IMG/VR virus record: IMGVR_UViG_2861043448_000004
Location: 1 to 21,351 of that record
From: a virus
Taxonomy: Duplodnaviria > Heunggongvirae > Uroviricota > Caudoviricetes
Direction: 5' to 3' (one strand)
DNA: 21,351 nt
The translations under genes were made by a program, and so were the position numbers. Of this stretch, positions 3,297-17,745 are shown in pieces; position 1 is the stretch's first letter, and every line of letters starts with the position of its first letter. The notes below the pieces were generated by a model. The model worked only from the letters and a program-made list of their open reading frames with translations. It searched no databases and was not told the DNA's origin.

Positions 3297-3848
3297 ATGC
3301 ATGACAATATTTGGTTTACATATAAAGCACGTATCCAAGCGCACCATCGACTAGAATGGCTTGAAAAACACTCTCAATTTATCCTCGTTTGGTATGCTAT
3401 ATTGAGTGCGGTACTTTCAATTGTAACGTTGCGATTTCCAAAGGTTCTAGGAGATAATACAGATGTCGTTGCGGCGATACTTTCAGTGGCTCTACTGGGT
3501 ATTTCTCTGATCGTATCTAACCTAGATTTTCGTGGTCGAGCAATAGCCATGAGAAGGAATTATATTGCACTACAGCGACTCTATTTTGACATTACCACCA
3601 GTCAACAGTTATCTCTTGAACAGAAAGAAAAATATTTTAATTTGCTCAATGAGGTTGAGAATCACCGTGACATAGATGATAAAATTTCAAGGGTAACTCA
3701 AGTTGGACTTAAGACGAGGATCCCCACACAAAAAGAAAAAATAATTGTTATTTTATGGATATTACTTCGAATATTTATTACTGCCGCACTTTATATACTC
3801 CCATTAATATATCTTTGGATTGACTATGACTGCAAGCAGAATTTTTAA
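3297..3848 (+). CDS. Predicted multi-pass inner-membrane protein, partner of the reverse transcriptase
   Basis: 183-aa ORF with AGGA Shine-Dalgarno 6 nt upstream; hydrophobic helices FILVWYAILSAVLSIVTL, VVAAILSVALLGISLIVSNL and C-terminal IIVILWILLRIFITAALYILPLIYLWI; AT-rich codon usage unlike flanking genes; 3' end overlaps the RT start by 23 nt. Confidence 0.7.
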   Translation: MHDNIWFTYKARIQAHHRLEWLEKHSQFILVWYAILSAVLSIVTLRFPKVLGDNTDVVAAILSVALLGISLIVSNLDFRGRAIAMRRNYIALQRLYFDITTSQQLSLEQKEKYFNLLNEVENHRDIDDKISRVTQVGLKTRIPTQKEKIIVILWILLRIFITAALYILPLIYLWIDYDCKQNF

Positions 3849-5196
3849 AAAGTCATTCTCGAAAAAAAATCTTCTAAAAGTATACTCTGAAAAAATCAAA
3901 GAATCAGGAGCGATTGGCATAGATCGGATTCGCCCATCAAAACTTGATTTGACAATAAAAAATGAGATCACTTTCATTTTTGAAAAGGTTAATTCTGGCA
4001 ATTACAAATTTACAGCATATAAAGAAAAATTAATATCTAAAGGCGCTAACTCTACACCCAGACAGATTTCCATACCAACTGCTAGGGACAGAATTACTCT
4101 TAGAGCTCTCTGTGAATGCCTTACGGAAATATATCCTAAGTCCAGATTAAAACTACCACATACAGTAATTGACTCATTGAAAGAAGCATTAAACAACAGT
4201 CTATATGCTGAATATGCAAAAATAGATCTTAAAAGTTTCTATCCTTCAATTGAACATAAATTGATAATTAATGCAATAAAAAATAAAATTAGAAAAAAAG
4301 AAATTAGACAGTTAATAACATCATCATTAATCGTGCCTACTGTAAGTGGAACCACAGGAAGCAAAGGTATCCCTAATAATACCAGAGGAGTACCTCAGGG
4401 ATTAGCGATATCAAACATTTTAGCTGAAATATCACTATCTAATTTCGATGATGAAATCAATAAAATGCATGACATATGGTACATGCGATACGTTGATGAC
4501 ATTCTTATTTTAACACCAAAATATCAAGCAACAAAAATAGCTTCTCATATCATTGATAAGCTTCAATCATTAAATTTAAACCCACATCCATTAAATGAAG
4601 AGAACTCAAAATCCAAAGTAGGCAGTTTGGATGAAAGTTTTAACTTTTTGGGATACCACATAGAAAATCGAGAATTATTGATAAAACATGAGAGCATTCT
4701 TAGATTTGAGTCATCCTTAGCAAAAATTTTTACTGCATATAGGCACGCTCTACTACAAGCTAAAAGTAAGCGTGATAAAGAACGAGCTGTTGCATATTGT
4801 CAGTGGAAACTAAATCTCAGAATTACGGGATGTGTGTTTGAAGGTAAACGATTGGGATGGGTATCGTACTTCTCACAAATAACCTCAACAGCTCAACTTC
4901 GCTCTGTTAATCATACTATCAATAATCTTATCCGCCGATTCGGCCTTTCATCAGAAATAAAACCAAAATCTTTGATTAAAACTTTCTATGAACTCCGCAG
5001 AGGTAGAGCGGAGACTTTTAAATACATACCTAACTTTGACAATCTACATATATCTCAGAAACGAGAACTTGTTTCTATGTGGATAGGTAAAGAGAAGGAA
5101 AAAAAACTTAGCAATAGTGAAATAGAGAGGAAGTTTAAATTTAAAATTGCGAAATCAGTAAAAGAGCTTGAAGAGGATATTTCAGGAATATCATAG
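3826..5196 (+). CDS. Reverse transcriptase (defence-associated, non-retron motif pattern)
   Basis: 456 aa from the ATG at 3826 (track ORF begins at a TTG at 3820). RT motifs are all present: GIDRI, RQISIPTARDRITLRAL, YAEYAKIDLKSFYPSI, GVPQGLAISNILAEISL, YMRYVDDILIL (YVDD catalytic box), FNFLGYHI (FLG-type motif 7 rather than the retron VTG); about 170-aa C-terminal extension; AT-rich. Confidence 0.85.
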   Translation: MTASRIFKKSFSKKNLLKVYSEKIKESGAIGIDRIRPSKLDLTIKNEITFIFEKVNSGNYKFTAYKEKLISKGANSTPRQISIPTARDRITLRALCECLTEIYPKSRLKLPHTVIDSLKEALNNSLYAEYAKIDLKSFYPSIEHKLIINAIKNKIRKKEIRQLITSSLIVPTVSGTTGSKGIPNNTRGVPQGLAISNILAEISLSNFDDEINKMHDIWYMRYVDDILILTPKYQATKIASHIIDKLQSLNLNPHPLNEENSKSKVGSLDESFNFLGYHIENRELLIKHESILRFESSLAKIFTAYRHALLQAKSKRDKERAVAYCQWKLNLRITGCVFEGKRLGWVSYFSQITSTAQLRSVNHTINNLIRRFGLSSEIKPKSLIKTFYELRRGRAETFKYIPNFDNLHISQKRELVSMWIGKEKEKKLSNSEIERKFKFKIAKSVKELEEDISGIS

Positions 5197-5633: not shown

Positions 5634-8477
5634 TTATTTAGAGGCAAGCGCCGCCTCAATTGCAGATAATCTTTGTTTTAATTCTGCGTTTTCTTCTTCC
5701 AGCGCGGTAACGCGATCATCTGTTTCACGGGCGACCTGAACAAGTAAGCCCGTCACGGCGGCGTAGTCAACATTCAGATAACGTGTTTCTTCACGTAATT
5801 CATTGCCGTCAACCGTTGGTCCCTGCAACTCTTTACCGTAATGAGTGAATGAGCCTACCGCTTCCGGTATTGCCTCCATTGCTTCCTGTGCAATAACACC
5901 AGCGTAAGGCAGTCCGTTTTCCTTAAGTGTGTAGGTGTACCCGTTCATTTTACGGATAGCTTCGGTTGCGTCACTGATAATCTGAATATTGTCTTTCAGC
6001 TCGCGGTCTGATAACTGATTCAGTGTTGTACAGTTAATAGCACCGTTTACATCAAACAGCTGACCTGACGATGTTTTTTGAGCATAAAACAGATACGCGG
6101 CAGACGTTCCAACCTCAAAAACGTTTTGTCGATCACCTGAACCCCACACCTTGACAGCAAATGGTAGTTCTGTATTACCTAAGTTCTGTAAAACAAAACG
6201 ATTGCCAGTCCCTGTTTGTTTTGTAAGAGTTAAATCAACAGTTGAGTTAACCTCATCCTTGTTGATAGTGAGCGCCTGCGCTTTAGCACCGTTAACAGCA
6301 CCTGTTTTGAGTTGAACCGCGCCGTCATTACCATTTAGCAGTATCTCAGCTCCGCTAAAGAAATTTTTTAGCGACAGCATCTTACTTACGCCGACTGATG
6401 AACCCAACGCCCACGCGAGAGAATTACCGGTGCTATCAAACCCACGTACAAAGCAATCCATTTTGCTATAGTCTGACGTGCTTCCAAGGACATCAATCCG
6501 CCCTCCGCCAGATTTTATCGGGTTAGATGTGGTTAATGACCTGACAGCAAGAGCGGTAGATGAATTGAGATCGTCTACTGTTAGTAATTTCTTCCATTCC
6601 TGCGTCGTTCCATTTTCAATTGTTCTTCCCCAAAAACCGGAATTGCGGCCTCCGAACTGCACAGCATAATTTTTACTAAATTGAACATGAATGCCGCCAA
6701 GAACCATAGAGCCTGCCGGGCCGTTTGTACTGCCTGCAATTGGTCTAAATTTGTCGACGTTATCAGTATGCTGAGCGTTCCAGTCTCGTCCTGTTTTTGT
6801 AAGCAGTCCTAATGTCGTGTCGAGCGCTTCGGTTAAAGTAAGGTTTTTAAATTTAACTGCGCTACTTTCGCCAAGACTTAAGTTGTTTCGCGCATCTTCT
6901 ACTGTTGTCGCACCTGTACCTCCTTGCCCAACAGCTAATGGCAACCAGCCAGTGCCATTATGACAACCCCACAAACCAGATTTGGAAACCTGTAAGCGTG
7001 GTGCGCCTGAAGAATACGTAGAATATACGTAAGTTGTTTCTTTTCCCTCTTCAACCCTTTCTGTTGATACATCTCTCTTCCATTCAGACCAGGTACCGCT
7101 ACCTCCTTCATATATTCGTCTATAAGTAATTCCCGGATTATTATAAGGGTGGTACACCTGAACGCAGGAAGAAGCAGTGTTGGCTCTCGTTTGGAGCACT
7201 ATTAAAGCGCCCGCCAGACCGATTGGGTAATTTAATTCTTCTGTTGCGTAAGCGCTCGTTGGTTGTTGATAGAAACCAGAATATTCACCGGTAAGGGTGT
7301 TTAGGTCAGTATTAGCAAGGCCAGCTTTTTGCTCATACATTACCCGCAAGTTCGCACGTGCTTGCTCGATAGTTCTTCCACCAGTACCACCCTGGGCTAA
7401 ACCTAACGGAGACCATTGTCCAGAAGAAGAATCATAAACCCCCCAACTCCCGTTAGTATGGATTTCAAAGAAACGATCACCAGTTGGACCATACATACGA
7501 GTTGTTGATTCATTTTGACCAAAGCGGCTTAATTCATCTCTGCGGGTATGACGTATCCATTGCGGGCCAGAACTTTGGCTGTAAATGTACGAATACAATG
7601 ATTTTGTATCTGAACCAACAAATAGACCGGAATATCTTTTTGTTGACACTTCTGATCTAACTATATAACCAGAAATAAGATTATCCCCGGCACTAGACGC
7701 TACTGATGGATAACCTTTCGCTGAGATGTAAATCCTGATAAATCCAATATAACCTGATGGCTCAACAGAGATATCAGTGCAGGTCATAGCAACTTCACCA
7801 AGACCAATATTGTTACCAACAACGGATTGTGCCTGGTTGCGATAATTAAGTGCGTCCGCTGCAGATTTCGCCGCGTTTGTTTCACTGGATTTAGCATTAG
7901 TTTCGCTGCTCTTTGCTGCTGCCTCGCTATTTTTCGCGTTGGTTTCTGATTTTTTGGCTGCTGTCGCGGAGTTTGCCGATGCAGTTTGTGAGGCCGCTGC
8001 CGCCTGTGCGCTGTTATCCGCATTCGTCTCAGACGTTTTTGCGGCCTTCGCGGAATTTCCTGCCGCCGTTGCCGAAGAGGCTGCACTACTGGCGCTCGAG
8101 GCTGCGCTCGTTTCTGATGATTTCGCTGCCTCTTTTGAGGCCGCCGCATCCCGGGCTGAGGTGGCAGCTTCTGACGCTTTCGTGGTCGCGGTGGATGCAG
8201 AAGTGGCTGCAGATTTTTGTGACGCTGCAGCATTCGTTTCTGACGTTTTCGCCGCACCGGCACTGGTAGCCGCCGCGCTTTTTGAGGACTCTGCAGCGGC
8301 AGCACTTTTTGATGCTTCAGTAGCCTTTGTTGATGCCGTTCCTGCGCTGGAAGACGCTGACTGAGCCGACGTCGCGGCCTGCCCGGCTGATGTGCTGGCT
8401 GCACGTGCTGAGCCTGCAGCATCAGTCGCATGGGTTCCCAGAGCACCACGCTGGCCGACTGCTCCGCACGGGTGCAT
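5634..8477 (-). CDS. stf: Side tail fibre protein lacking its N-terminal region, with C-terminal intramolecular chaperone (peptidase S74-like) domain
   Basis: Ala/Ser-rich repeats (SARAASTSAGQAATSAQ..., KTSETNA repeats) align with the part of lambda Stf that starts around residue 150 (from memory); two GQGGTG...ARxNL collar repeats; C-terminal LSDRELKDNIQ...VDYAAVTGLLVQ with ENAELKQRL coiled coil is typical of the self-cleaving chaperone domain. The first ATG directly follows the in-frame TGA of the upstream terminase fragment. Confidence 0.75.
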   Translation of the reverse strand: MHPCGAVGQRGALGTHATDAAGSARAASTSAGQAATSAQSASSSAGTASTKATEASKSAAAAESSKSAAATSAGAAKTSETNAAASQKSAATSASTATTKASEAATSARDAAASKEAAKSSETSAASSASSAASSATAAGNSAKAAKTSETNADNSAQAAAASQTASANSATAAKKSETNAKNSEAAAKSSETNAKSSETNAAKSAADALNYRNQAQSVVGNNIGLGEVAMTCTDISVEPSGYIGFIRIYISAKGYPSVASSAGDNLISGYIVRSEVSTKRYSGLFVGSDTKSLYSYIYSQSSGPQWIRHTRRDELSRFGQNESTTRMYGPTGDRFFEIHTNGSWGVYDSSSGQWSPLGLAQGGTGGRTIEQARANLRVMYEQKAGLANTDLNTLTGEYSGFYQQPTSAYATEELNYPIGLAGALIVLQTRANTASSCVQVYHPYNNPGITYRRIYEGGSGTWSEWKRDVSTERVEEGKETTYVYSTYSSGAPRLQVSKSGLWGCHNGTGWLPLAVGQGGTGATTVEDARNNLSLGESSAVKFKNLTLTEALDTTLGLLTKTGRDWNAQHTDNVDKFRPIAGSTNGPAGSMVLGGIHVQFSKNYAVQFGGRNSGFWGRTIENGTTQEWKKLLTVDDLNSSTALAVRSLTTSNPIKSGGGRIDVLGSTSDYSKMDCFVRGFDSTGNSLAWALGSSVGVSKMLSLKNFFSGAEILLNGNDGAVQLKTGAVNGAKAQALTINKDEVNSTVDLTLTKQTGTGNRFVLQNLGNTELPFAVKVWGSGDRQNVFEVGTSAAYLFYAQKTSSGQLFDVNGAINCTTLNQLSDRELKDNIQIISDATEAIRKMNGYTYTLKENGLPYAGVIAQEAMEAIPEAVGSFTHYGKELQGPTVDGNELREETRYLNVDYAAVTGLLVQVARETDDRVTALEEENAELKQRLSAIEAALASK

Positions 8478-9890
8478 TCATTCAGTGTTTCCTGCCGGAT
8501 AGCTGGCCGGATCAATTCGCTGGCTCTCCCCGTCGCTGTCACCGCGCAATGACTGCGTGATGTTGTAACGATCAATAATCCAGCGTTCGCCACGGCTGCC
8601 ATAGCCCGTTACCTGAACCACAAAACGGCGATGACGTCCCGCCTGCACATCCACTGTCGCCACAAGGAAATTAACGCCATCCGGCACACTGCGGGAAGGA
8701 ACTGGCTCTGCCCGCTGCTCAAGCAATTCACTTTTTCGTTGCTCCATGCTGGCGCGGGGAAGATAAGGTAATCCCCAGTCGGTATTGATAACCGTCTTGA
8801 GTGTCTCTTCACTTCCGGTTGTCTCGTATTCCTGTTCTGCAGTAAGCAGTTTGTAAACGAGTTGCGAGAGTGTCTGATAAGCAGCTGCCGGCCCCTCCAT
8901 CCAGAATGACGCAATACGTGAACGCCGGGGATCACCATAACGACTGCCATCTGCATTGATGGATTCACCATCCCGTAACCAGACCCCACGTCCGTTCAGC
9001 TCGCGTTTTTGTTCAGGCAAAATCCGTCCTGAACAGGAAGGACACTGAATATAAGCCGCCTCACTTGCCAGCACAGGATCGGCAATATCACGGAAACCAG
9101 CAACCACATCGCCGCAGGGCTGAAAATACTCACCACAGTGTGGACAGGGCCAGTACCAGCGACGGCGATCGCCACGGTTATAGAGCGACAGGATCCCCGT
9201 GGTTGGTGGAGCCTCATGCGGTGAAGTCCGTCGCCATTTCACATCCTTCACATCCCTGCCGGGGGAACTCTCCACCAGCGTCATACCACTGGACATAAAT
9301 GTGGTGGTACGTTTTGAGGCAAGAGAGAAGGCATCCCCCTCACCATCAATATCTTCCGGAAAACGGTCATAATCCGTCAGCGCCACGCATTTATAATCTG
9401 ATGAAGACATGATATTGACTGACGGCCAGCCGATTTTCAGGTAGTTGCCAGCAAGGAATGTTCTGTCATAAACGTTGTTGTCATTTTTGTTCGGACTCAG
9501 GCGACTGACCACTTCCGGGCTGACGCGAAACGTTCTGGCGAGTCGTTTTTTGGAGTGTTCGCGGGCTTTTTCCTCCGTCATCTGAATGATCAGCATATCA
9601 GCAGGATCGCAAATCACGTTGTAAATCACCCAGCCGTCAATCAGGCCGATAGTCTTGCCGGTTCGTGCCGGGCCAACAAATATCACTGCGTCGTATTCAC
9701 GCGAGGCCAGGCAGTTCATAGGCTCAATAACATACGGTGCCACCAGCGGATCCCACGGGACTGAGTTCCCTGCCCCCATGGGCACCCGCATATACTGAGC
9801 AACGGCATCAGCAACCCGCATTCGTCTCGGTGCGCGAAGGATATAACCTGAATCGGTTCGTGCTGCCTTTGCGGTTTCCTGATTCAGCAT
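8478..9890 (-). pseudogene. Terminase large subunit (GpA family), C-terminally truncated
   Basis: 470 aa against about 640 in lambda gpA; contains GPARTGKT Walker-A-like motif, zinc-finger-like WPCPHCGEYFQ ... CPSCSG and WIIDRYNI resembling lambda gpA ACPHCGEE and SWLIDRQII; start overlaps the small-subunit stop (TAATG) with GGAGGAG Shine-Dalgarno; ORF ends abruptly at TGA directly abutting stf. Confidence 0.75.
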
Positions 9891-10381
9891 TACTCCTCCT
9901 GCTGTAATTCCTCCTCATCATCCGCACCTGCTTCGGTCACCCGCAGGGCTATCTGATCGCGCAGATCATCAATAATGGACTGAACACGGCTCACAGCAGC
10001 AGGCTGCAGGCCGCAGTCACGTTCCAGAATATCCGGTAATGTCTCCAGCACCTGCACGACCGCTTTTGCCCAGATGGCAAACTCCCGTCTGACATCACTG
10101 GCCGGAATGAGTTGTGCCGTTTCCTGTTCGAACTTAAGACGCTCACGTTCAGACTGATACCAGGCTTTGCGTTCATGTGGATCCATTTCGCCCTCAGCAA
10201 CCGGCGGTGGTAACCCCATAAATTCAGTCAGAATATCGGTCAACCGGTATAGCTTGAGTTTGTCATGTCCACCAGCGGGACGAATGTTTTTCAGTCTTGC
10301 CACGACAGTCTGGCGGTGCAGACCAGATAAAGCCGCCAGTTGATTAATATTCAGCACCAGGTTTTTCAACTCATGATCCAT
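9890..10381 (-). CDS. Terminase small subunit (Nu1-like, N-terminal HTH)
   Basis: 163 aa; N-terminus MDHELKNLVLNINQLAALSGLHRQTVVARLKNIRPAGG is a winged-HTH resembling lambda Nu1; GGAGG Shine-Dalgarno 4-5 nt upstream; acidic C-terminus; translationally coupled to the large subunit. Confidence 0.65.
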   Translation of the reverse strand: MDHELKNLVLNINQLAALSGLHRQTVVARLKNIRPAGGHDKLKLYRLTDILTEFMGLPPPVAEGEMDPHERKAWYQSERERLKFEQETAQLIPASDVRREFAIWAKAVVQVLETLPDILERDCGLQPAAVSRVQSIIDDLRDQIALRVTEAGADDEEELQQEE

Positions 10382-10555
10382 ATTTCCTCCGGAGAGCTTT
10401 AAACATGCATCGTGCGAACAACTTTAAGAAAACGCGTTCGATGTCGAACAAAAAACACGCAATTCGACATACAAAAAACAAATAATCATTAATAATCAAT
10501 AAGATGTAAAGATGATGGTGGCCGATAAAAATGCAAAAACTAGCCTTTTTCCGCG

Positions 10556-10567
10556 ACGCTCCCGCCC
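10556..10567 (-). other. Candidate cosN cohesive-end site
   Basis: Minus strand reads ACGGGGCGGGAGCGTCGCGG, closely resembling lambda ACG-GGGCGGCGACCT-CGCGG (lambda cos recalled from memory); lies about 180 bp upstream of the terminase small-subunit start, as in lambda. Confidence 0.4.
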
Positions 10568-10998
10568 CGTGGCAGGCCACCCCACCGGGAGGACCCGTCA
10601 GCCTGACAGCTCTGACGAACGTCTGATACAACGCCTTGCATGAATGGCATCGGGATAATCCAGAAAGGCATAGCATCGTGCCCACAAGAATCTGTGTAAG
10701 TGTCCTGTTTCTTCCACCCCCGCACAGGACTGGCGAGCATGAGGGACAAACCCGCGAACCATAAACGCGGTAAAAACCCGGTGTGCATCGTTTTTGATTA
10801 TTCCCGCACACTCTCGCAGAAGGAGTTCCCCGTCGGGCTACGGTCTCTGTTAATACGGGAATACGGCGACGATACAGCGCATGATGTGTCAGGCTTGAAT
10901 ACCTTTATCCGTTAAAAGGGATATCAGTTAAATTATCCCGTGTAGGGTATAAGCCATTGTCAAAGACACTCGACATGGAATGGGCTTTGTAATAGCAA

Positions 10999-11020
10999 TA
11001 AAAAACCGCCCGGAGGCGGC
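10999..11020 (-). terminator. Candidate intrinsic terminator downstream of the 79-aa gene
   Basis: Minus strand GCCGCCTCCGGGCGG hairpin followed by TTTTTT (plus-strand A-run at 11000..11005). Confidence 0.45.
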
Positions 11021-11059
11021 ATTTCAAGTGTGACGTATGTTAGATCAAAAACTTAAATA

Positions 11060-11299
11060 CTAACTGTCGAATTTGTTTCGTAACTCCGGCGACAGTGACG
11101 ACCACCAGTTTATCGCTTCAAGTGCTTCTTTCTCTATATAATTTTTTTTATAGAATGCTTGCAATTGAGGTAGCACATTATCATGTGAGAATGCCTCTGA
11201 AATTTTGAAGTCTGCACCTAAGTGCATCGCTCCCATTTTCAATACCTTGAGATACCCATGGATTTCAGCATGTTTTTCAAAATCATCTAATATATTCAT
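11060..11299 (-). CDS. Hypothetical small protein (79 aa) between lysis genes and cos
   Basis: Intact ORF MNILDDFEKHAEIHGYLKVL...; followed by a terminator; family not recognised. Confidence 0.45.
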   Translation of the reverse strand: MNILDDFEKHAEIHGYLKVLKMGAMHLGADFKISEAFSHDNVLPQLQAFYKKNYIEKEALEAINWWSSLSPELRNKFDS

Positions 11300-11326
11300 T
11301 TCTTCATCCTTTAGTGAGAGCGCTCA

Positions 11327-11354
11327 ACATACTACATACTACATACTACATAAT
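11327..11354. repeat. Tandem heptanucleotide repeat (ACATACT) x3 plus one imperfect unit
   Basis: ACATACT ACATACT ACATACT ACATAAT read directly; spans the Rz stop codon and the upstream region of the 79-aa gene. Confidence 0.85.
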
Positions 11355-11807
11355 GCACTGGGTGACGATATAGTTCTGCAGATAACTAATCTGTTTAGTC
11401 ACTGTGACGATTCGCTCTCTAAGGGTGAAATAATCCCGTTCAGCGGAGTCATTAAGTCGGGGGCTGGTAACATCGCCCAAGCTGCCGGTGCTGGTCGCTC
11501 CATTCGCGGGACATCTGGCGTTGAAGTGCAGCCCACACTTGCCAGTGCGAACACAACGCTGCAAATCATCAAGCTGCTTTTTAGCATCAGCTAAGTCCTT
11601 CGTGTATTTGGCATCCAGAGCCGCTACATCACGCTGGCGGATCTGCATGTCTTTGATGGTGGCGTTCGCCAGTTTCAGTTCTCTGGTGTTTTTGTCGCGC
11701 TGCTCTTTGTAAGTCATGGCGTTATCCCGGTAATGATTAACAGCCCATGACAGACAGACGATGATGCAGATAACCAGAGCGGAGATAATCGCGGTTAATC
11801 TGCTCAT
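11346..11807 (-). CDS. Rz: Spanin inner-membrane subunit Rz (i-spanin)
   Basis: [30 protein letters not shown]... is near-identical in its first ~70 residues to lambda Rz; ATG at 11807 overlaps the upstream stop (ATGA). Confidence 0.9.
11399..11587 (-). CDS. Rz1: Spanin outer-membrane lipoprotein Rz1 (o-spanin), embedded in the Rz +1 frame
   Basis: 62-aa ORF wholly inside Rz in another frame; lipobox LASVGC, proline-rich [12 protein letters not shown] and PLNGIISP motif shared with lambda Rz1. Confidence 0.8.
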
Positions 11808-12178
11808 TTCTGCCCCCACAAACAGACTTCACGCTCAATCTCCCGACGAGTCATCAGTCCTTTCCATTGCTTACCGCCAGCGTATGTCCAGCGACGTAGC
11901 TGATCACACGCACCTTTGATATCGTCCCGGTTGATTTTGCGAAGAAGCGTCGATGTTCTGAAATTTCCAGTATCCGGAGGAAACAACACGATCTCCACTG
12001 AAGCAGGTGCCGACGTTGGTTTCGGCAGACGACGTAACTGCTCAACTATTGCTGCGCACGCCGCGCTCTGAAATTTTCGCCCCGCCTCGCTTATCAGGCT
12101 CTTACCAGCAAATGCCCCTTTGTTGGGGTGTCGCCAGTACGTGTTCACACTGGGCGGGAAAGGAAGGATCAACTTCAT
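11804..12178 (-). pseudogene. Chimeric ORF: RusA resolvase N-terminus fused to endolysin C-terminus
   Basis: Residues 1 to about 68 (LPFPPSVNTYWRH...VEIVLFPPD) resemble RusA (LPWPPSNNRYYRH...) but stop before the catalytic acidic cluster; the remainder [54 protein letters not shown] matches the C-terminus of a DLP12 RrrD-type lysozyme (from memory). Confidence 0.6.
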
Positions 12179-13641: not shown

Positions 13642-14460
13642 TCACCCCCTGAATCCTGCCGGGATCTGGCTGTAGTCCACGTTGTCGTAACTGGCTTTGA
13701 AGTACGGGTCCTCGCGTCTGGCTGCAGATACCGCAGGAACTTCCCAGGATTCTTCGAAATGACGATCCGGACCAAAGAACGTGACAGCCTGTTTCACAAA
13801 TTGTGTGCCGCTGTTACCCATCGCAGATACCCAGCCCGCGTAGCGTTTCACACCTTCCAGCATGGTTTCGGGGTTTACCCCCTCATTCAAACGGGCTTTC
13901 CAGGCTTTGAAGGCTGCAGATTTTGAATTGCCACCAGCACGTTTGGGATATACCAGCCATGCCTGCTCAAACTCCGGAGAGTATTCCGGTCGGTTTGAAC
14001 GAACTCGCACGGACTCATCAACTGATGCACCAACAGCTATTGGTTCATTGACTGGTTCTTTGACTGGTTCAAAAGAGTGACTGGTTCTGGGTGAATCTCC
14101 TGCACTACCCCCTGGTGCAACTCCTGCACTACCTGGTGAATTTGCTGCACCAGATAGTGAATTATTTGCACTACCCCCTAGTGAATCTCCTGCACCATCC
14201 AGATGAAGGAGATAGATATTACTTGAGTTACCTTTTTCACCTTTCCGGGTGACTTTTTTTACCAGCCCGGACTCACAAAGGGCCGCAATATGATTCATCA
14301 CAGAACGTTTGCTAATCTCGCACTGGTCAGCAATATGCTGGTAGCTGGGCCAGCACTCACCCTGATCGCTGGCATTATCAGCCAGCTTGATCAGAACCAG
14401 TTTTCGCAATGGATTACCCACTCGAATTTTCATCGCTTTAACCATCAGCTCCATACTCAT
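13642..14460 (-). CDS. Phage replication initiation protein (N-terminal HTH, repeat linker, C-terminal domain)
   Basis: 272 aa; N-terminal LRKLVLIKLADNASDQGECWPSYQHIADQCEISKRSVMNHIAALCESGLVKK is a replication-initiator-type winged HTH; low-complexity Gly/Ser/Ala/Pro linker encoded by DNA direct repeats; gene order matches the lambda O position. Confidence 0.65.
   Translation of the reverse strand: MSMELMVKAMKIRVGNPLRKLVLIKLADNASDQGECWPSYQHIADQCEISKRSVMNHIAALCESGLVKKVTRKGEKGNSSNIYLLHLDGAGDSLGGSANNSLSGAANSPGSAGVAPGGSAGDSPRTSHSFEPVKEPVNEPIAVGASVDESVRVRSNRPEYSPEFEQAWLVYPKRAGGNSKSAAFKAWKARLNEGVNPETMLEGVKRYAGWVSAMGNSGTQFVKQAVTFFGPDRHFEESWEVPAVSAARREDPYFKASYDNVDYSQIPAGFRG
14049..14200. repeat. Direct-repeat arrays inside the replication gene (candidate origin iterons)
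   Basis: Three copies of TGACTGGTTC (14049..14086) then about five imperfect ~22-bp units of GGTGAATCTCCTGCACTACCCCCT type (14090..14200). Confidence 0.5.
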
Positions 14461-14693: not shown

Positions 14694-15522
14694 GACGATG
14701 CCCTCCGCTGATATTCAGGAGACGGTGAATATGAAAATTAGCCTTATCCGCCAGACGAATACGTTCAGCCTGCAAGTTAAGAAGGGTTTCTACCAGAACT
14801 TGATGCGCCTGCGGATCCGAAAGAGTTACCTTGCGCAGAGCACGTAGTGCAGTTGTTACATAACTGAGTTTATGTAAGTCTTCATCATTCAGACGAGTGA
14901 GGGCTGGGACAGTAGCCATGATGGCAGCCTCCGATAACAGTGAATTACCTTCACCACCGGAAACGCCAATTTCGCTGGTGGTGAACTGAACGGGGTTGGC
15001 GTAACCGGCGTTATCGGAAACCGGCGCACCTTTCGGTGCCCCCGTCCAGCCCACCATAATTTGGGTGTGCACAGACGCAGACGATAAAAAAGACGCTGGC
15101 GCGTCATATATCGCCGATAACATTTCCAGGACGCCAATCCCGGCACCCGCTTTATAAGGTGCCTGAACAGTGTAACGTCCCGGAATGGCAGAATCAATGT
15201 GCTGGTGGTCCTTCACACTCAACAAAATCACGCCTGAATTTCCACAAAGGACTAAAGCACTCATGCGGGTAGTCTTTGCGAAGATAGATAACGCGCTGTG
15301 TTTCTGGCTCCCAACGAATAACATGGACATAAAGCCCTCTTCCGTCACGAAACCAGCGGTTAAGTTCCTGCACAACTCGCCCCCCACAGTCAGGTAAAGT
15401 TCTCTGTGGTTACTTACAGCCAGGTGATTTGGTAATCTGCATTCATGCCGTAACAACAGGTGTTCAGCGACACTGACCACCAGCTGTTGCGACAAACGGT
15501 TATTTGCCGTTAAACTGTTCAT
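14686..15522 (-). CDS. Hypothetical phage protein (278 aa), possibly YdaU-like
   Basis: Long intact ORF, translationally coupled to the upstream gene; family assignment tentative and from memory only. Confidence 0.5.
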   Translation of the reverse strand: MNSLTANNRLSQQLVVSVAEHLLLRHECRLPNHLAVSNHRELYLTVGGELCRNLTAGFVTEEGFMSMLFVGSQKHSALSIFAKTTRMSALVLCGNSGVILLSVKDHQHIDSAIPGRYTVQAPYKAGAGIGVLEMLSAIYDAPASFLSSASVHTQIMVGWTGAPKGAPVSDNAGYANPVQFTTSEIGVSGGEGNSLLSEAAIMATVPALTRLNDEDLHKLSYVTTALRALRKVTLSDPQAHQVLVETLLNLQAERIRLADKANFHIHRLLNISGGHRHA

Positions 15523-17079: not shown

Positions 17080-17091
17080 TCAATATTTATA

Positions 17092-17113
17092 ACCTGCTTC
17101 GGCAGGTTTTTTT
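17092..17113 (+). terminator. Intrinsic terminator after the CI gene
   Basis: ACCTGCttcgGCAGGT hairpin followed by TTTTTTT. Confidence 0.65.
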
Positions 17114-17117
17114 ATAC

Positions 17118-17161
17118 TTGACAATGTACCCTTAAGATACATAATGTATCTATAGGATACA
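17118..17161 (+). promoter_or_regulatory. pL-like promoter overlapped by two operator sites
   Basis: TTGACA (17118..17123), CATAAT (17140..17145); operators TGTACCcttaaGATACA (17125..17141) and TGTATCtatagGATACA (17145..17161) share the half-site family seen in the OR region. Confidence 0.5.
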
Positions 17162-17745
17162 TAACACAGGCAAGATTAAACTAAATTTGGTTGTAACACG
17201 GCGTATGGCACATGCGTCGTTAGCGGTCTGGGGACGTTAAAGGGGACAATCCACTCCTTGCTCGGGCAAACAAACCAGGTAGCCGGAATGTGCAAGTCAA
17301 TGATGATGCTGATAAGACGCCTAACCAGCGTGGCGATCCGGTTTGACGCCTGGGAAGAGACCAGGGTGCAACGATGAGGGCATTTATGGAACCGCGACAA
17401 AGTGTGGTGCCGTAACTGGCTAAGTGCTCTCAGCGTTGTGGTAATCCGCGAAATGGCGCGGCGGTAAGTATGGCGGGGTTACTCTTTCCCCGTTGAGGAC
17501 ACCGGATTGTCAGGTTGACCATACGCCTGAGTGACAACCCCACCACAACAGCCACTGCTTTGGCGGTACCAGTTTGTACACTTGCTTCCGGCTGGTACCG
17601 CTCTTTTTACAAAACAGAGAAGAGCATCACCGGACGACGGGCTCATAACCCAATCCATCCGGGCGGCTGCCACCGCAGGTGTTCTTCTCTGTTTTGTGGA
17701 GAAACCAACCGACCTTGCAGGGTCGATATGATGAGGAGCAGCAAA

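What the first reader, a model, noticed from the sequence alone, without database searches (positions are those of the whole stretch)
14049..14200. Iteron-like direct repeats inside the replication initiator gene
Three TGACTGGTTC copies and about five ~22-bp imperfect repeats lie within the coding sequence, encoding the EPV and Gly/Ser-rich linker. Lambda places its origin iterons inside gene O in the same way. No helicase-loader (P or DnaC-like) gene follows, so the origin may be an orphan, able to titrate a related initiator from an incoming phage but not to replicate the element.
Basis: partly seen in the sequence, partly recalled or inferred. Interest (0 to 1): 0.35.

Follow-up and report, generated by a model that had tools for sequence, protein, structure and literature searches.

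The report
Phage replication origin inside initiator gene
The repeats are real and are almost certainly the binding sites and core of a phage replication origin built into its own initiator gene, as in phage lambda; the idea that this origin is a dead "orphan" is not supported, because viable phages carry the same module without a helicase-loader gene.

Summary
The gene at 13642-14460 (- strand) encodes a 272-aa initiator that is 99.6% identical to SfV Orf39.

**Iterons.** Its disordered linker is encoded by five 15-bp dyad-symmetric sites, GTGMA-N5-TKCAC, spaced 24/21/21/24 bp. The window holds 6 matches against 0.09 expected.

**Adjacent element.** Next to the array lies a 48-bp element with three GAACCAGTCA copies spaced 17 and 12 nt.

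**Comparative evidence.** About 200 related loci from Gammaproteobacterial phages and prophages support a DNA-level function:
- Every relative has its own dyad repeats at the same fixed distance from the element. 484 of 552 cores are dyads in register, against 0-6 of 552 out of register.
- The half-site sequence changes together with the recognition helix of the N-terminal winged-helix domain.
- Third codon positions in the element are 87-100% conserved, even where the amino acid varies.
- The same 10-mer is read in two reading frames.

**Orphan reading.** This is not supported. Phages deposited as complete genomes (SfV, mEp460, Ayreon, cdtI, Stx2c phages, ST64B) have the same gene order without a P, DnaC or DnaB gene. 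The initiator gene here is intact. The prophage itself is defective, but through deletions in its late region.

**Verdict.** This is a lambda-like origin in a different initiator family, a new member of a known kind. The conserved element is a modestly novel side-finding. Origin activity has not been tested.

The parts
13642..14460 (-). Replication initiator gene (272 aa; SfV orf39 / mEp460 gp43 type)
   Evidence: ORF and translation. Pfam HTH_36, 1.8e-11. PHROG 270 'replication initiation protein', 6.9e-88. 99.6% amino-acid identity to SfV Orf39.
14203..14460 (-). N-terminal winged-helix DNA-binding domain (aa 1-86). The recognition helix, aa 51-64, lies at 14269-14310.
   Evidence: AlphaFold2 gives pLDDT 78-91 over aa 1-89, with helices 17-28, 40-47 and 51-64 and a beta-hairpin wing at 67-85. 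Foldseek matches are all winged-helix domains, including the DnaD N-terminal domain. The residues of helix 51-64 covary with the half-site sequence across relatives.
14181..14195 (-). Iteron 1, farthest from the conserved element (coding strand GTGCAggagaTTCAC)
14157..14171 (-). Iteron 2 (GTGCAaataaTTCAC)
14136..14150 (-). Iteron 3 (GTGCAgcaaaTTCAC)
14115..14129 (-). Iteron 4 (GTGCAggagtTGCAC, a perfect dyad)
14091..14105 (-). Iteron 5, next to the conserved element (GTGCAggagaTTCAC). It ends 2 nt before the AGA codon of the element.
   Evidence: The same position is occupied by a dyad in almost all relatives.
14041..14088 (-). Nucleotide-level conserved element: AGAACCAGTCAC TCTTTT GAACCAGTCAAA GAACCAGTCAAT GAACCA. 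Its three GAACCAGTCA copies lie at 14078-14087, 14061-14070 and 14049-14058, followed by a half copy at 14041-14046. GC content is 42%.
   Evidence: Present, with at most 8 of 35 mismatches and in frame, in 69 of 80 loci chosen only by N-domain protein similarity. Third codon positions are 0.87-1.00 conserved, against 0.30-0.77 at invariant N-domain residues. Spacing is always 17 nt, then 12 nt. All 115 assessable loci found by the DNA element alone carry the N-domain in the same ORF.
13645..13989 (-). C-terminal domain (aa 158-272), the presumed helicase-recruitment module
   Evidence: PHROG 26426 'replication protein', 1.5e-63; weaker hits to PHROG 1701 'DnaD-like helicase loader' and PHROG 9327 'primosomal protein'. 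Helices at 162-214 with moderate pLDDT. In AsXd-1 and Stx2_14040 the same domain is followed by DnaC-like and DnaB-like genes.

Best explanation
The region 14041-14195 is the replication origin of an SfV-type lambdoid prophage. It lies inside the linker-coding part of the initiator gene.

**Proposed mechanism**
1. Dimers of the initiator's N-terminal winged-helix domain bind the five dyad-symmetric iterons (core GTGMA-N5-TKCAC; extended form TRGTGMA-N5-TKCACYA, 19 bp). The iterons are spaced about two helical turns apart.
2. The resulting nucleoprotein complex acts on the neighbouring conserved, relatively A+T-rich element of GAACCAGTCA repeats. This is the most likely site of strand opening or of a conserved second contact.
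3. The C-terminal domain brings in a DnaB-type helicase. In SfV-type phages, which encode no loader, this would be the host DnaB-DnaC complex.

**What is shown here, computationally:** the anatomy, the fixed register, the covariation between protein and DNA, the nucleotide-level constraint, and the occurrence of the same loader-less module in phages deposited as complete genomes.

**What is inferred:** initiator binding, unwinding at the element, recruitment of the host helicase, and origin firing.

The origin is therefore not an orphan for want of a loader. The prophage in the window is defective because of deletions in its late region.
For: **The pattern is specific.** There are 6 matches against 0.09 expected in the window. 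In SfV, mEp460, cdtI, PhiR63_1, ST64B and AsXd-1 the pattern occurs only in this array within the 3.8-10.8 kb fetched for each.

**Relatives have their own dyad repeats in the same register.** Cores sit at -17, -41 and -62 nt from the element. 484 of 552 are 5-N5-5 dyads with at most 1 mismatch, against 0-6 of 552 at shifted offsets.

**Half-sites covary with recognition-helix residues:**
- S[KR]RS[VA][MI]xH goes with GTG[C/A]A.
- ISKRSVMRH and CDKRTAMRH go with GTGAC.
- MSRKTAIGH and MTRTTAINH go with GTGTA.
- IGRSTVK[SV]H goes with GGGCA.
- CSK[ST]AVRxH goes with TGCC[AG].

**The dyad extends beyond the selected positions.** Flanks that were not part of the selection extend it to 19 bp: T at -2 (0.90) pairs with A at +16 (0.66).

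**The element is under nucleotide-level selection**. The same 10-mer is read in two frames in this gene. In Shewanella variants, where the spacing is 15 nt, both copies are read in one frame.

**The element keeps about 41% GC** even in Pseudomonas genes of about 60% GC.

**The N-domain, iterons and element travel as one unit.** They are joined to at least 8 unrelated C-terminal domains, each with its own partner gene. Natural chimeras have their junction at the element.

**Iteron copy number varies between alleles.** Alleles range from 242 to 302 aa, and cdtI has 8 iterons. The same is reported for lambda against Stx phages (PMC7466680).

**The lambda precedent.** The lambda origin lies in the middle of gene O. 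It has 19-bp imperfect inverted-repeat iterons bound by O dimers, next to an AT-rich tract (PMC7466680; annotated in NC_001416). P22 and phage L show the same arrangement (PMC8022706).

**The module occurs without a loader in phages deposited as complete genomes**.
Against: - There is no experimental origin mapping for this module in any paper I could search.
- The element is only mildly A+T-rich (42% GC). The least stable 40-mer of the gene lies on the other side of the iterons, at 14201-14240. The unwinding site is therefore uncertain.
- No DnaA box occurs anywhere in the window.
- The fold and partners of the C-terminal domain are not established. AlphaFold2 confidence is moderate to low beyond aa 160, and there is no PDB relative by sequence.
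- Covariation shows that the repeats are bound by the N-domain. It does not show that binding leads to initiation.
Confidence: 0.8

Rival explanations
1. Orphan origin. The repeats are a relic origin that cannot fire because no helicase loader is encoded. At most they titrate the initiator of an incoming related phage.
For: - No P, DnaC or DnaB gene follows the initiator.
- The prophage is a remnant. It has a RusA::lysozyme fusion, a truncated terminase and no head or tail genes.
- Plasmid-borne lambda iterons can block rep-lambda phages, although that effect also needs oop transcription (PMC3349717).
Against: - The identical loader-less gene order occurs in SfV, mEp460, Ayreon, cdtI, Stx2c phages and ST64B, all deposited as complete phage genomes.
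- 54 of 70 loci with this C-terminal domain have no loader.
- The initiator ORF is intact and is 100% identical in many E. coli genomes.
- A single chromosomal copy of five sites is a weak sink.
Confidence: 0.06
2. The repeats are initiator-binding sites, but their main role is regulatory rather than origin function. Possible roles are autorepression, a transcriptional roadblock, or copy-number control by handcuffing. The origin would lie elsewhere.
For: - Covariation proves binding specificity, not initiation.
- The adjacent element is not strongly A+T-rich.
- Iterons in plasmids also serve in control (general knowledge of iteron plasmids).
Against: - No other repeat array or A+T-rich candidate accompanies the module across relatives.
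- The array keeps a fixed register to a nucleotide-conserved element.
- The architecture parallels the mapped lambda origin (PMC7466680).
Confidence: 0.1
3. The repeats are by-products of slippage in a low-complexity Gly/Ser/Pro protein linker. They have no cis-acting DNA function.
For: - The encoded segment is predicted to be disordered, with pLDDT below 50 over aa 91-157.
- Copy number varies between alleles.
Against: - Coding constraints do not explain the dyad symmetry of each unit.
- They do not explain the fixed register, or the helix/half-site covariation.
- Linker peptides differ completely between relatives (GSAGDSP, PSDKMSP, GGAGAA, STPVPPE), yet the DNA architecture is the same.
- Synonymous sites in the element are conserved, and the 10-mer is read in two frames.
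Confidence: 0.03

Closest known systems
Phage lambda ori-lambda inside gene O (with Stx phages 933W and P27)
   Same: - The origin lies in the middle of the initiator gene, in the part that encodes the linker between the DNA-binding and helicase-recruiting domains.
- There are 4-6 tandem iterons of about 19 bp. Each is an imperfect inverted repeat with a 5-nt centre, and start-to-start spacing is 20-24 bp.
- A less G+C-rich element follows on the 3' side.
- Iteron number varies between phages, and the protein changes length accordingly (PMC7466680).
   Different: - The proteins share no detectable sequence similarity (BLASTP E = 0.02 over 22 residues). The Pfam family here is HTH_36, not Phage_rep_O.
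- The flanking element is a conserved set of GAACCAGTCA direct repeats at 42% GC, not a long A/T tract.
- No P gene follows.
P22 gene 18 and phage L gene 18 origins
   Same: The initiator gene contains its own iteron array. Specificity differs between related phages and is exchanged as a module (PMC8022706).
   Different: Those initiators are paired with a phage DnaB-type helicase, gp12. The repeat sequences and lengths differ (11-bp units in phage L).
SfV orf39 / mEp460 gp43 / ST64B sb42 / cdtI orf46 'replication protein'; E. coli K-12 CPS-53 yfdO-yfdN region (K-12 link from memory)
   Same: This is the same gene, at 87-99.6% amino-acid identity. It has the same neighbours: orf38, a PerC/YfdN-like gene, Dam, a LexA-like gene and RusA.
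   Different: None in kind. I found no published description of the origin of this module.
Iteron plasmids (RK2, pSC101, R6K, F) and the oriC unwinding element
   Same: Tandem initiator sites spaced about two helical turns apart lie next to a set of short tandem repeats where melting occurs. In oriC and RK2 these are 13-mers; here they are 12-nt-spaced 10-mers (general knowledge; PMC4081077, PMC4980987).
   Different: - The initiator here is not a Rep_3/WH1-WH2 protein.
- The origin lies inside a coding sequence.
- There are no DnaA boxes.

Membership tests
Lambda-type phage origin embedded in the initiator gene (functional class) | Three or more tandem repeats of about 20 bp inside the initiator ORF, between the DNA-binding and C-terminal domains | tested here: met
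   Five units lie at 14091-14195 and encode aa 89-124, between the winged-helix domain (aa 1-86) and the C-terminal domain (aa 158-272).
Lambda-type phage origin embedded in the initiator gene (functional class) | Each repeat is an imperfect inverted repeat, consistent with binding by a dimer | tested here: met
   GTGMA-N5-TKCAC in all five units. 484 of 552 cores in relatives are dyads, against 0-6 of 552 at shifted offsets.
Lambda-type phage origin embedded in the initiator gene (functional class) | An adjacent A+T-rich tract where unwinding starts | tested here: inconclusive
   The element has 42% GC against 50% for the gene. In relatives the mean is 41% against 52%. It is conserved at the nucleotide level, but it is not a strong A/T tract. 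The least stable 40-mer lies on the other side of the iterons, at 14201-14240.
Lambda-type phage origin embedded in the initiator gene (functional class) | The cognate initiator binds the repeats specifically | not testable with these tools
   Supported indirectly by covariation between the recognition helix and the half-site. EMSA or footprinting is needed.
Lambda-type phage origin embedded in the initiator gene (functional class) | The region supports initiation of replication | not testable with these tools
   No experiment was found in the literature I could search.
Lambda O protein family (Pfam PF04492, Phage_rep_O) | Sequence membership of the initiator | tested here: not met
   No PF04492 hit at E <= 0.01. 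BLASTP against lambda O gives only a 22-residue match at E = 0.02.
HTH_36 / PHROG 270 phage replication initiators (SfV Orf39 type) | Sequence membership of the initiator | tested here: met
   PF13730, 1.8e-11. phrog_270, 6.9e-88. 99.6% identity to SfV Orf39.
Initiator plus helicase-loader module (lambda O-P; DnaC or DnaB partner) | A loader or helicase gene immediately downstream of the initiator | tested here: not met
   PerC-like, Dam and LexA-like genes follow. The same holds in the SfV-type phage genomes examined. Relatives with the same C-terminal domain in AsXd-1 and Stx2_14040 do have DnaC-like and DnaB-like genes.
Iteron-plasmid Rep proteins (Rep_3 / WH1-WH2) | Sequence membership of the initiator | tested here: not met
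   No Rep_3 or related Pfam hit. No relative in the PDB by sequence.

The most novel reading that the evidence does not exclude
The 35-50-nt GAACCAGTCA-repeat element may be a previously undescribed, nucleotide-conserved origin core. It is shared by a very large family of temperate phages across Gammaproteobacteria: Enterobacterales, Pseudomonas, Aeromonas, Shewanella, Vibrionaceae, Marinomonas and Halomonadaceae.

What the evidence shows about it:
- It is tied to one winged-helix initiator N-domain.
- It is independent of iteron specificity.
- It is independent of which helicase system the C-terminal domain recruits.
- It is translated in two reading frames.

On this reading it would have two roles. 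It would be the site of strand opening, or of a conserved second contact by the initiator or a host factor. It would also be the homologous joint at which the specificity module (N-domain plus iterons) and the recruitment module (C-terminal domain plus partner gene) are shuffled.

The helix/half-site table would also give a readable recognition code for predicting replication incompatibility groups among prophages.
Probability: 0.45. Interest if true: 0.6.

Novelty: new member of a known kind. Interest (0 to 1): 0.42.

Why it matters
It assigns a concrete origin to one of the commonest replication modules of E. coli, Shigella and Salmonella prophages. About half of complete E. coli genomes carry a match to this gene. 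The module also occurs in Stx2c- and Stx2a-converting, cdt-converting and serotype-converting phages.

It shows that these phages do not need their own helicase loader. That points to the host DnaB-DnaC complex as the likely partner.

The covariation between recognition helix and half-site gives a way to predict which co-resident or incoming phages share replication specificity. That bears on exclusion and interference between prophages.

The conserved element gives phage-replication researchers a defined target for mutagenesis.

Tried and rejected
- **DnaA boxes.** TTWTNCACA has no match in the whole window.
- **Known RNA families at the locus.** None overlaps the repeats. The only Rfam hits are C4 and isrK, about 800 nt upstream.
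- **PDB sequence search.** Only spurious low-complexity matches.
- **Foldseek.** Only generic winged-helix matches, all with E above 0.01. Nothing informative for the C-terminal domain.
- **Lambda O homology.** None detectable.
- **Crude dyad count over whole genes.** Counting 5-N5-5 dyads with at most 1 mismatch discriminated poorly (4.7 against 2.1 per 100 nt). I replaced it with the fixed-offset test.
- **Sixth iteron-like site at 14940-14954.** It is absent from SfV and mEp460, so it is probably chance.
- **Literature.** Searches for SfV, orf39, iterons, the Stx-phage 'Eru' replication-unit typing papers, 'initiator-solo', and winged-helix iterons in lambdoid phages found no description of this origin.
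- **A strong A+T-rich tract.** Not found. There are only 37-42% GC stretches on both sides of the array.
- **A correction to my own notes.** An early notebook entry gave the core offsets as -20, -44 and so on. The correct values are -17, -41, -62, -83 or -86, and -107 nt from the AGA codon of the element.

Full report
**1. What is in the window**

The window is an E. coli chromosomal segment that carries a defective lambdoid prophage at dusA. It is 100% identical to strains such as 035152.

From left to right it holds:
- dusA;
- an integrase (1668-2765);
- DinI;
- a SLATT plus UG17 reverse-transcriptase defence pair;
- an S74 tail-fibre gene abutting a truncated large terminase;
- Rz;
- a RusA::lysozyme fusion ORF.

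Next comes an early-right operon on the - strand. In transcription order it is Cro-like, CII-like, Ash, orf38, the initiator (13642-14460), a PerC/YfdN-like gene, Dam, a LexA-like gene and RusA. An S24-peptidase repressor is divergently transcribed. The late region has been lost by deletion. The immunity and replication part looks intact.

**2. The observation**

The initiator ORF encodes 272 aa.
- The three TGACTGGTTC copies are at 14049, 14061 and 14078.
- Five units of 21-24 bp span 14091-14195.
- On the coding strand each unit has a 15-bp core, GTGCA-N5-T[T/G]CAC. The cores are spaced 24, 21, 21 and 24 bp apart.
- The degenerate pattern GTGMANNNNNTKCAC occurs six times in the window against 0.09 expected. 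Five of the six form this array.

One detail needs correcting. The 10-mer copies are 17 and 12 nt apart. The first copy is therefore translated as (R)TSH and the other two as EPV. The same DNA word is read in two frames, which already argues for a DNA repeat rather than a peptide repeat.

**3. The protein**

Family hits:
- Pfam places the N-terminus in HTH_36 (1.8e-11).
- PHROGs places the whole protein in family 270, 'replication initiation protein' (6.9e-88).
- Separate PHROG families match the N-terminal and C-terminal halves.

AlphaFold2, run on a 26-sequence alignment, gives three regions:
- a confident winged helix over aa 1-89, with the third helix at aa 51-64 and a beta-hairpin wing at 67-85;
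- a disordered stretch over aa 91-157;
- a moderately confident helical C-terminal domain.

Foldseek returns only winged-helix domains. The repeats thus encode the disordered linker. This is the same layout as in lambda gene O (PMC7466680).

**4. The same gene occurs in complete phage genomes**

| Phage(s) | Identity to the window gene |
|---|---|
| SfV Orf39 and Stx2c phages | 99.6% amino acid |
| mEp460, Ayreon, cdtI | about 99% nucleotide |
| ST64B | 87.5% amino acid |

In SfV, mEp460, cdtI, PhiR63_1 and ST64B the neighbours are the same as in the window. None of them has a P-, DnaC- or DnaB-like gene. Lack of a loader is therefore a normal property of this module. It is not a sign of decay.

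**5. Comparative anatomy**

I assembled three sets of relatives:
- **Phage records found by tblastn.** AsXd-1, Vibrio D67, Stx2a_F403, S107, phiV039C and S1249.
- **120 IMG/VR loci found by the DNA word** AGAACCAGTCACTCTTTNGAACCAGTCAA. All 115 assessable loci have the N-domain in the same ORF.
- **80 genome loci found only by N-domain peptide patterns, aa 1-87**. They come from Enterobacterales, Pseudomonas, Aeromonas, Shewanella, Marinomonas, Aliivibrio, Halomonadaceae, Marinobacter, Microbulbifer and Cardiobacteriaceae.

Five results follow.

(a) *Every relative has its own repeats at the same place.* Each has 3-5 (rarely more) units of 21-24 bp, and the linker peptides are unrelated. Each unit contains a 5-N5-5 dyad. 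The dyads sit at fixed offsets from the conserved element: -17, -41, -62, -83 or -86, and -107 nt. At the three proximal offsets, 484 of 552 cores are dyads with at most 1 mismatch. At offsets shifted by 3-9 nt the count is 0-6 of 552.

(b) *The half-site changes with the residues of helix 3*:

| Helix-3 residues | Half-site |
|---|---|
| S[KR]RS[VA][MI]xH | GTG[C/A]A |
| ISKRSVMRH, CDKRTAMRH | GTGAC |
| MSRKTAIGH, MTRTTAINH | GTGTA |
| IGRSTVK[SV]H | GGGCA |
| CSK[ST]AVRxH, ISHSSVRNH | TGCC[AG] |
| IDRSTVR[KR]H | TAGGC/TGCTT |

This covariation between protein and DNA is the strongest evidence that the repeats are binding sites of the N-domain.

(c) *The dyad extends to 19 bp.* In the window's specificity class, flanks that were not selected for extend it to TRGTGMA-N5-TKCACYA. 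This is the length reported for lambda iterons (PMC7466680).

(d) *The element next to the array is conserved as DNA.*
- In the protein-ascertained set, 69 of 80 loci carry it in frame with at most 8 of 35 mismatches.
- Third codon positions over R-T-S-H-S-F-E-P-V show 0.87-1.00 majority frequency. This holds even where the amino acid is only 43-57% conserved.
- Invariant residues of the N-domain show only 0.30-0.77 at third positions.
- The GAACCAGTCA copies are always spaced 17 nt, then 12 nt, with 2-4 copies and no background occurrences.
- Shewanella variants have 15-nt spacing, so both copies are read in the EPV frame.
- The element stays at about 41% GC even in Pseudomonas genes of about 60% GC.

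(e) *The unit of N-domain, iterons and element is joined to at least eight unrelated C-terminal domains.* Each has a characteristic downstream partner: P-like, DnaC-like, DnaB-like or primase-helicase.
- For the window's C-terminal domain, 54 loci have no loader, 14 have DnaC plus DnaB, and 2 have a P-like gene.
- The DnaC-like and DnaB-like identities were checked for AsXd-1 and Stx2_14040.
- Natural chimeras with another N-domain and iteron set fused to the SfV-type C-terminal domain have their junction at the element.

**6. Interpretation**

The array behaves as an iteron array. The region 14041-14195 has the architecture of a lambda-type origin: dimer-binding inverted repeats about two helical turns apart, inside the linker-coding part of the initiator gene, followed by a less G+C-rich conserved element.

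The element goes with the N-domain. It does not track iteron specificity or the helicase system. It is therefore unlikely to be a loader-specific site. It is more likely the region that the initiator complex melts, or a conserved second contact for the initiator or a host factor. It is also the joint at which modules are exchanged.

The C-terminal domain co-occurs with DnaC and DnaB genes in some phages and stands alone in others. This suggests that it recruits a DnaB-DnaC-type complex, taken from the host in SfV-type phages. These functional steps are inferences. No experiment on this module was found.

**7. The orphan-origin idea**

Its premise, that no loader means no replication, is contradicted by the phage genomes in section 4. 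The initiator gene here is intact and identical to widespread alleles.

The prophage cannot make particles, so the origin is 'cryptic' in that sense. Nothing in the sequence suggests it cannot fire after derepression.

Interference with an incoming phage of the same specificity is conceivable. There is a precedent with multicopy lambda iterons plus oop (PMC3349717). A single chromosomal array is a weak sink.

**8. Comparison and novelty**

The region works like ori-lambda. It is not a member of the lambda O protein family: there is no PF04492 hit and no BLASTP similarity. It is a member of the HTH_36 / PHROG 270 family typified by SfV Orf39.

An origin embedded in an initiator gene is textbook for lambda, P22 and phage L. 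The finding is therefore a new member of a known kind.

I did not find the following described for this module:
- the nucleotide-conserved GAACCAGTCA element, translated in two frames;
- the fixed register of the iterons;
- the helix/half-site code.

**9. Limits**

- All evidence is computational.
- The unwinding site is uncertain. The least stable DNA lies on the other side of the array.
- The fold and partners of the C-terminal domain are unresolved.
- Sequences in the comparative sets are related. Counts of loci are therefore not counts of independent events. Even so, the specificity classes recur in different genera and with different C-terminal domains.

Noticed in passing
window 14974-15061 (-) and 15086-15162 (-): Rfam finds a C4 antisense RNA (82.8 bits) and an isrK Hfq-binding RNA (63.7 bits). 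Both lie inside the mechanically called 278-aa 'Ash' ORF, just upstream of orf38 and the initiator on the same strand. A P1 immI-like antisense switch may gate expression of the replication operon.
   Followed up: no
window 3297-3848 (+) and 3820-5196 (+): A SLATT_5 protein and a UG17 reverse transcriptase sit next to the integrase. The PADLOC hits are RTasSLATT (1.5e-56) and RT_UG17 (1.2e-158), a DRT-type anti-phage defence pair carried by the prophage remnant.
   Followed up: partly
window 5634-12178: The prophage is a deletion remnant. ORF 11804-12178 fuses a RusA N-terminus to a lysozyme C-terminus. The large terminase is cut to 470 aa (8478-9890) and abuts an S74 tail-fibre gene (5634-8477). 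There are no head or tail genes. In strain K71-77 the same attachment site holds a different remnant.
   Followed up: partly
window 14940-14954 (+): A sixth match to the iteron pattern (GTGAATTACCTTCAC) lies about 745 nt upstream of the array. It is present in K71-77 but absent from SfV and mEp460, so it is probably chance.
   Followed up: yes
P0028, P0040, P0042, P0001, P0003; L004 (cdtI), L023, L131, L118: Alleles of this gene vary in repeat number.
- They carry 1, 2, 5, 6, 7 or 8 or more iterons. The 2-iteron allele P0028 is seen on 64 contigs.
- They also differ in the number of 12-nt units in the element.
- P0040 has lost the element and the last iteron.

Whether the short alleles still replicate is unknown.
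   Followed up: partly
P0059, P0069, P0072 (alignment A2): These are natural chimeras. An N-domain and iteron set of another specificity (GGGCA type or TGCC type) is fused to a nearly identical SfV-type C-terminal domain. The junction lies exactly at the conserved element.
   Followed up: partly
L204, L205, L209 (Shewanella); L184, L190 (Parashewanella): In these variants of the conserved element the first two GAACCAGTCA copies are 15 nt apart, not 17. Both are therefore read as E-P-V. The DNA word is kept while the reading frame changes.
   Followed up: partly
L174 (Erwinia tracheiphila) and L008 (Vibrio phage D67): A change in the residue just before the conserved His of the recognition helix, from N to R (ISKRSVMNH to ISKRSVMRH), goes with a half-site change from GTG[C/A]A to GTGAC. 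This is a candidate specificity-determining contact.
   Followed up: no
window 17123-17164 (+): A 20-bp tandem repeat of 2.1 copies (AATGTACCCATAAGATACAT) overlaps a strong promoter-like site (TTGACA-16-CATAAT, 17118-17145). It lies just past the repressor gene and a terminator-like hairpin at 17091-17108.
   Followed up: no
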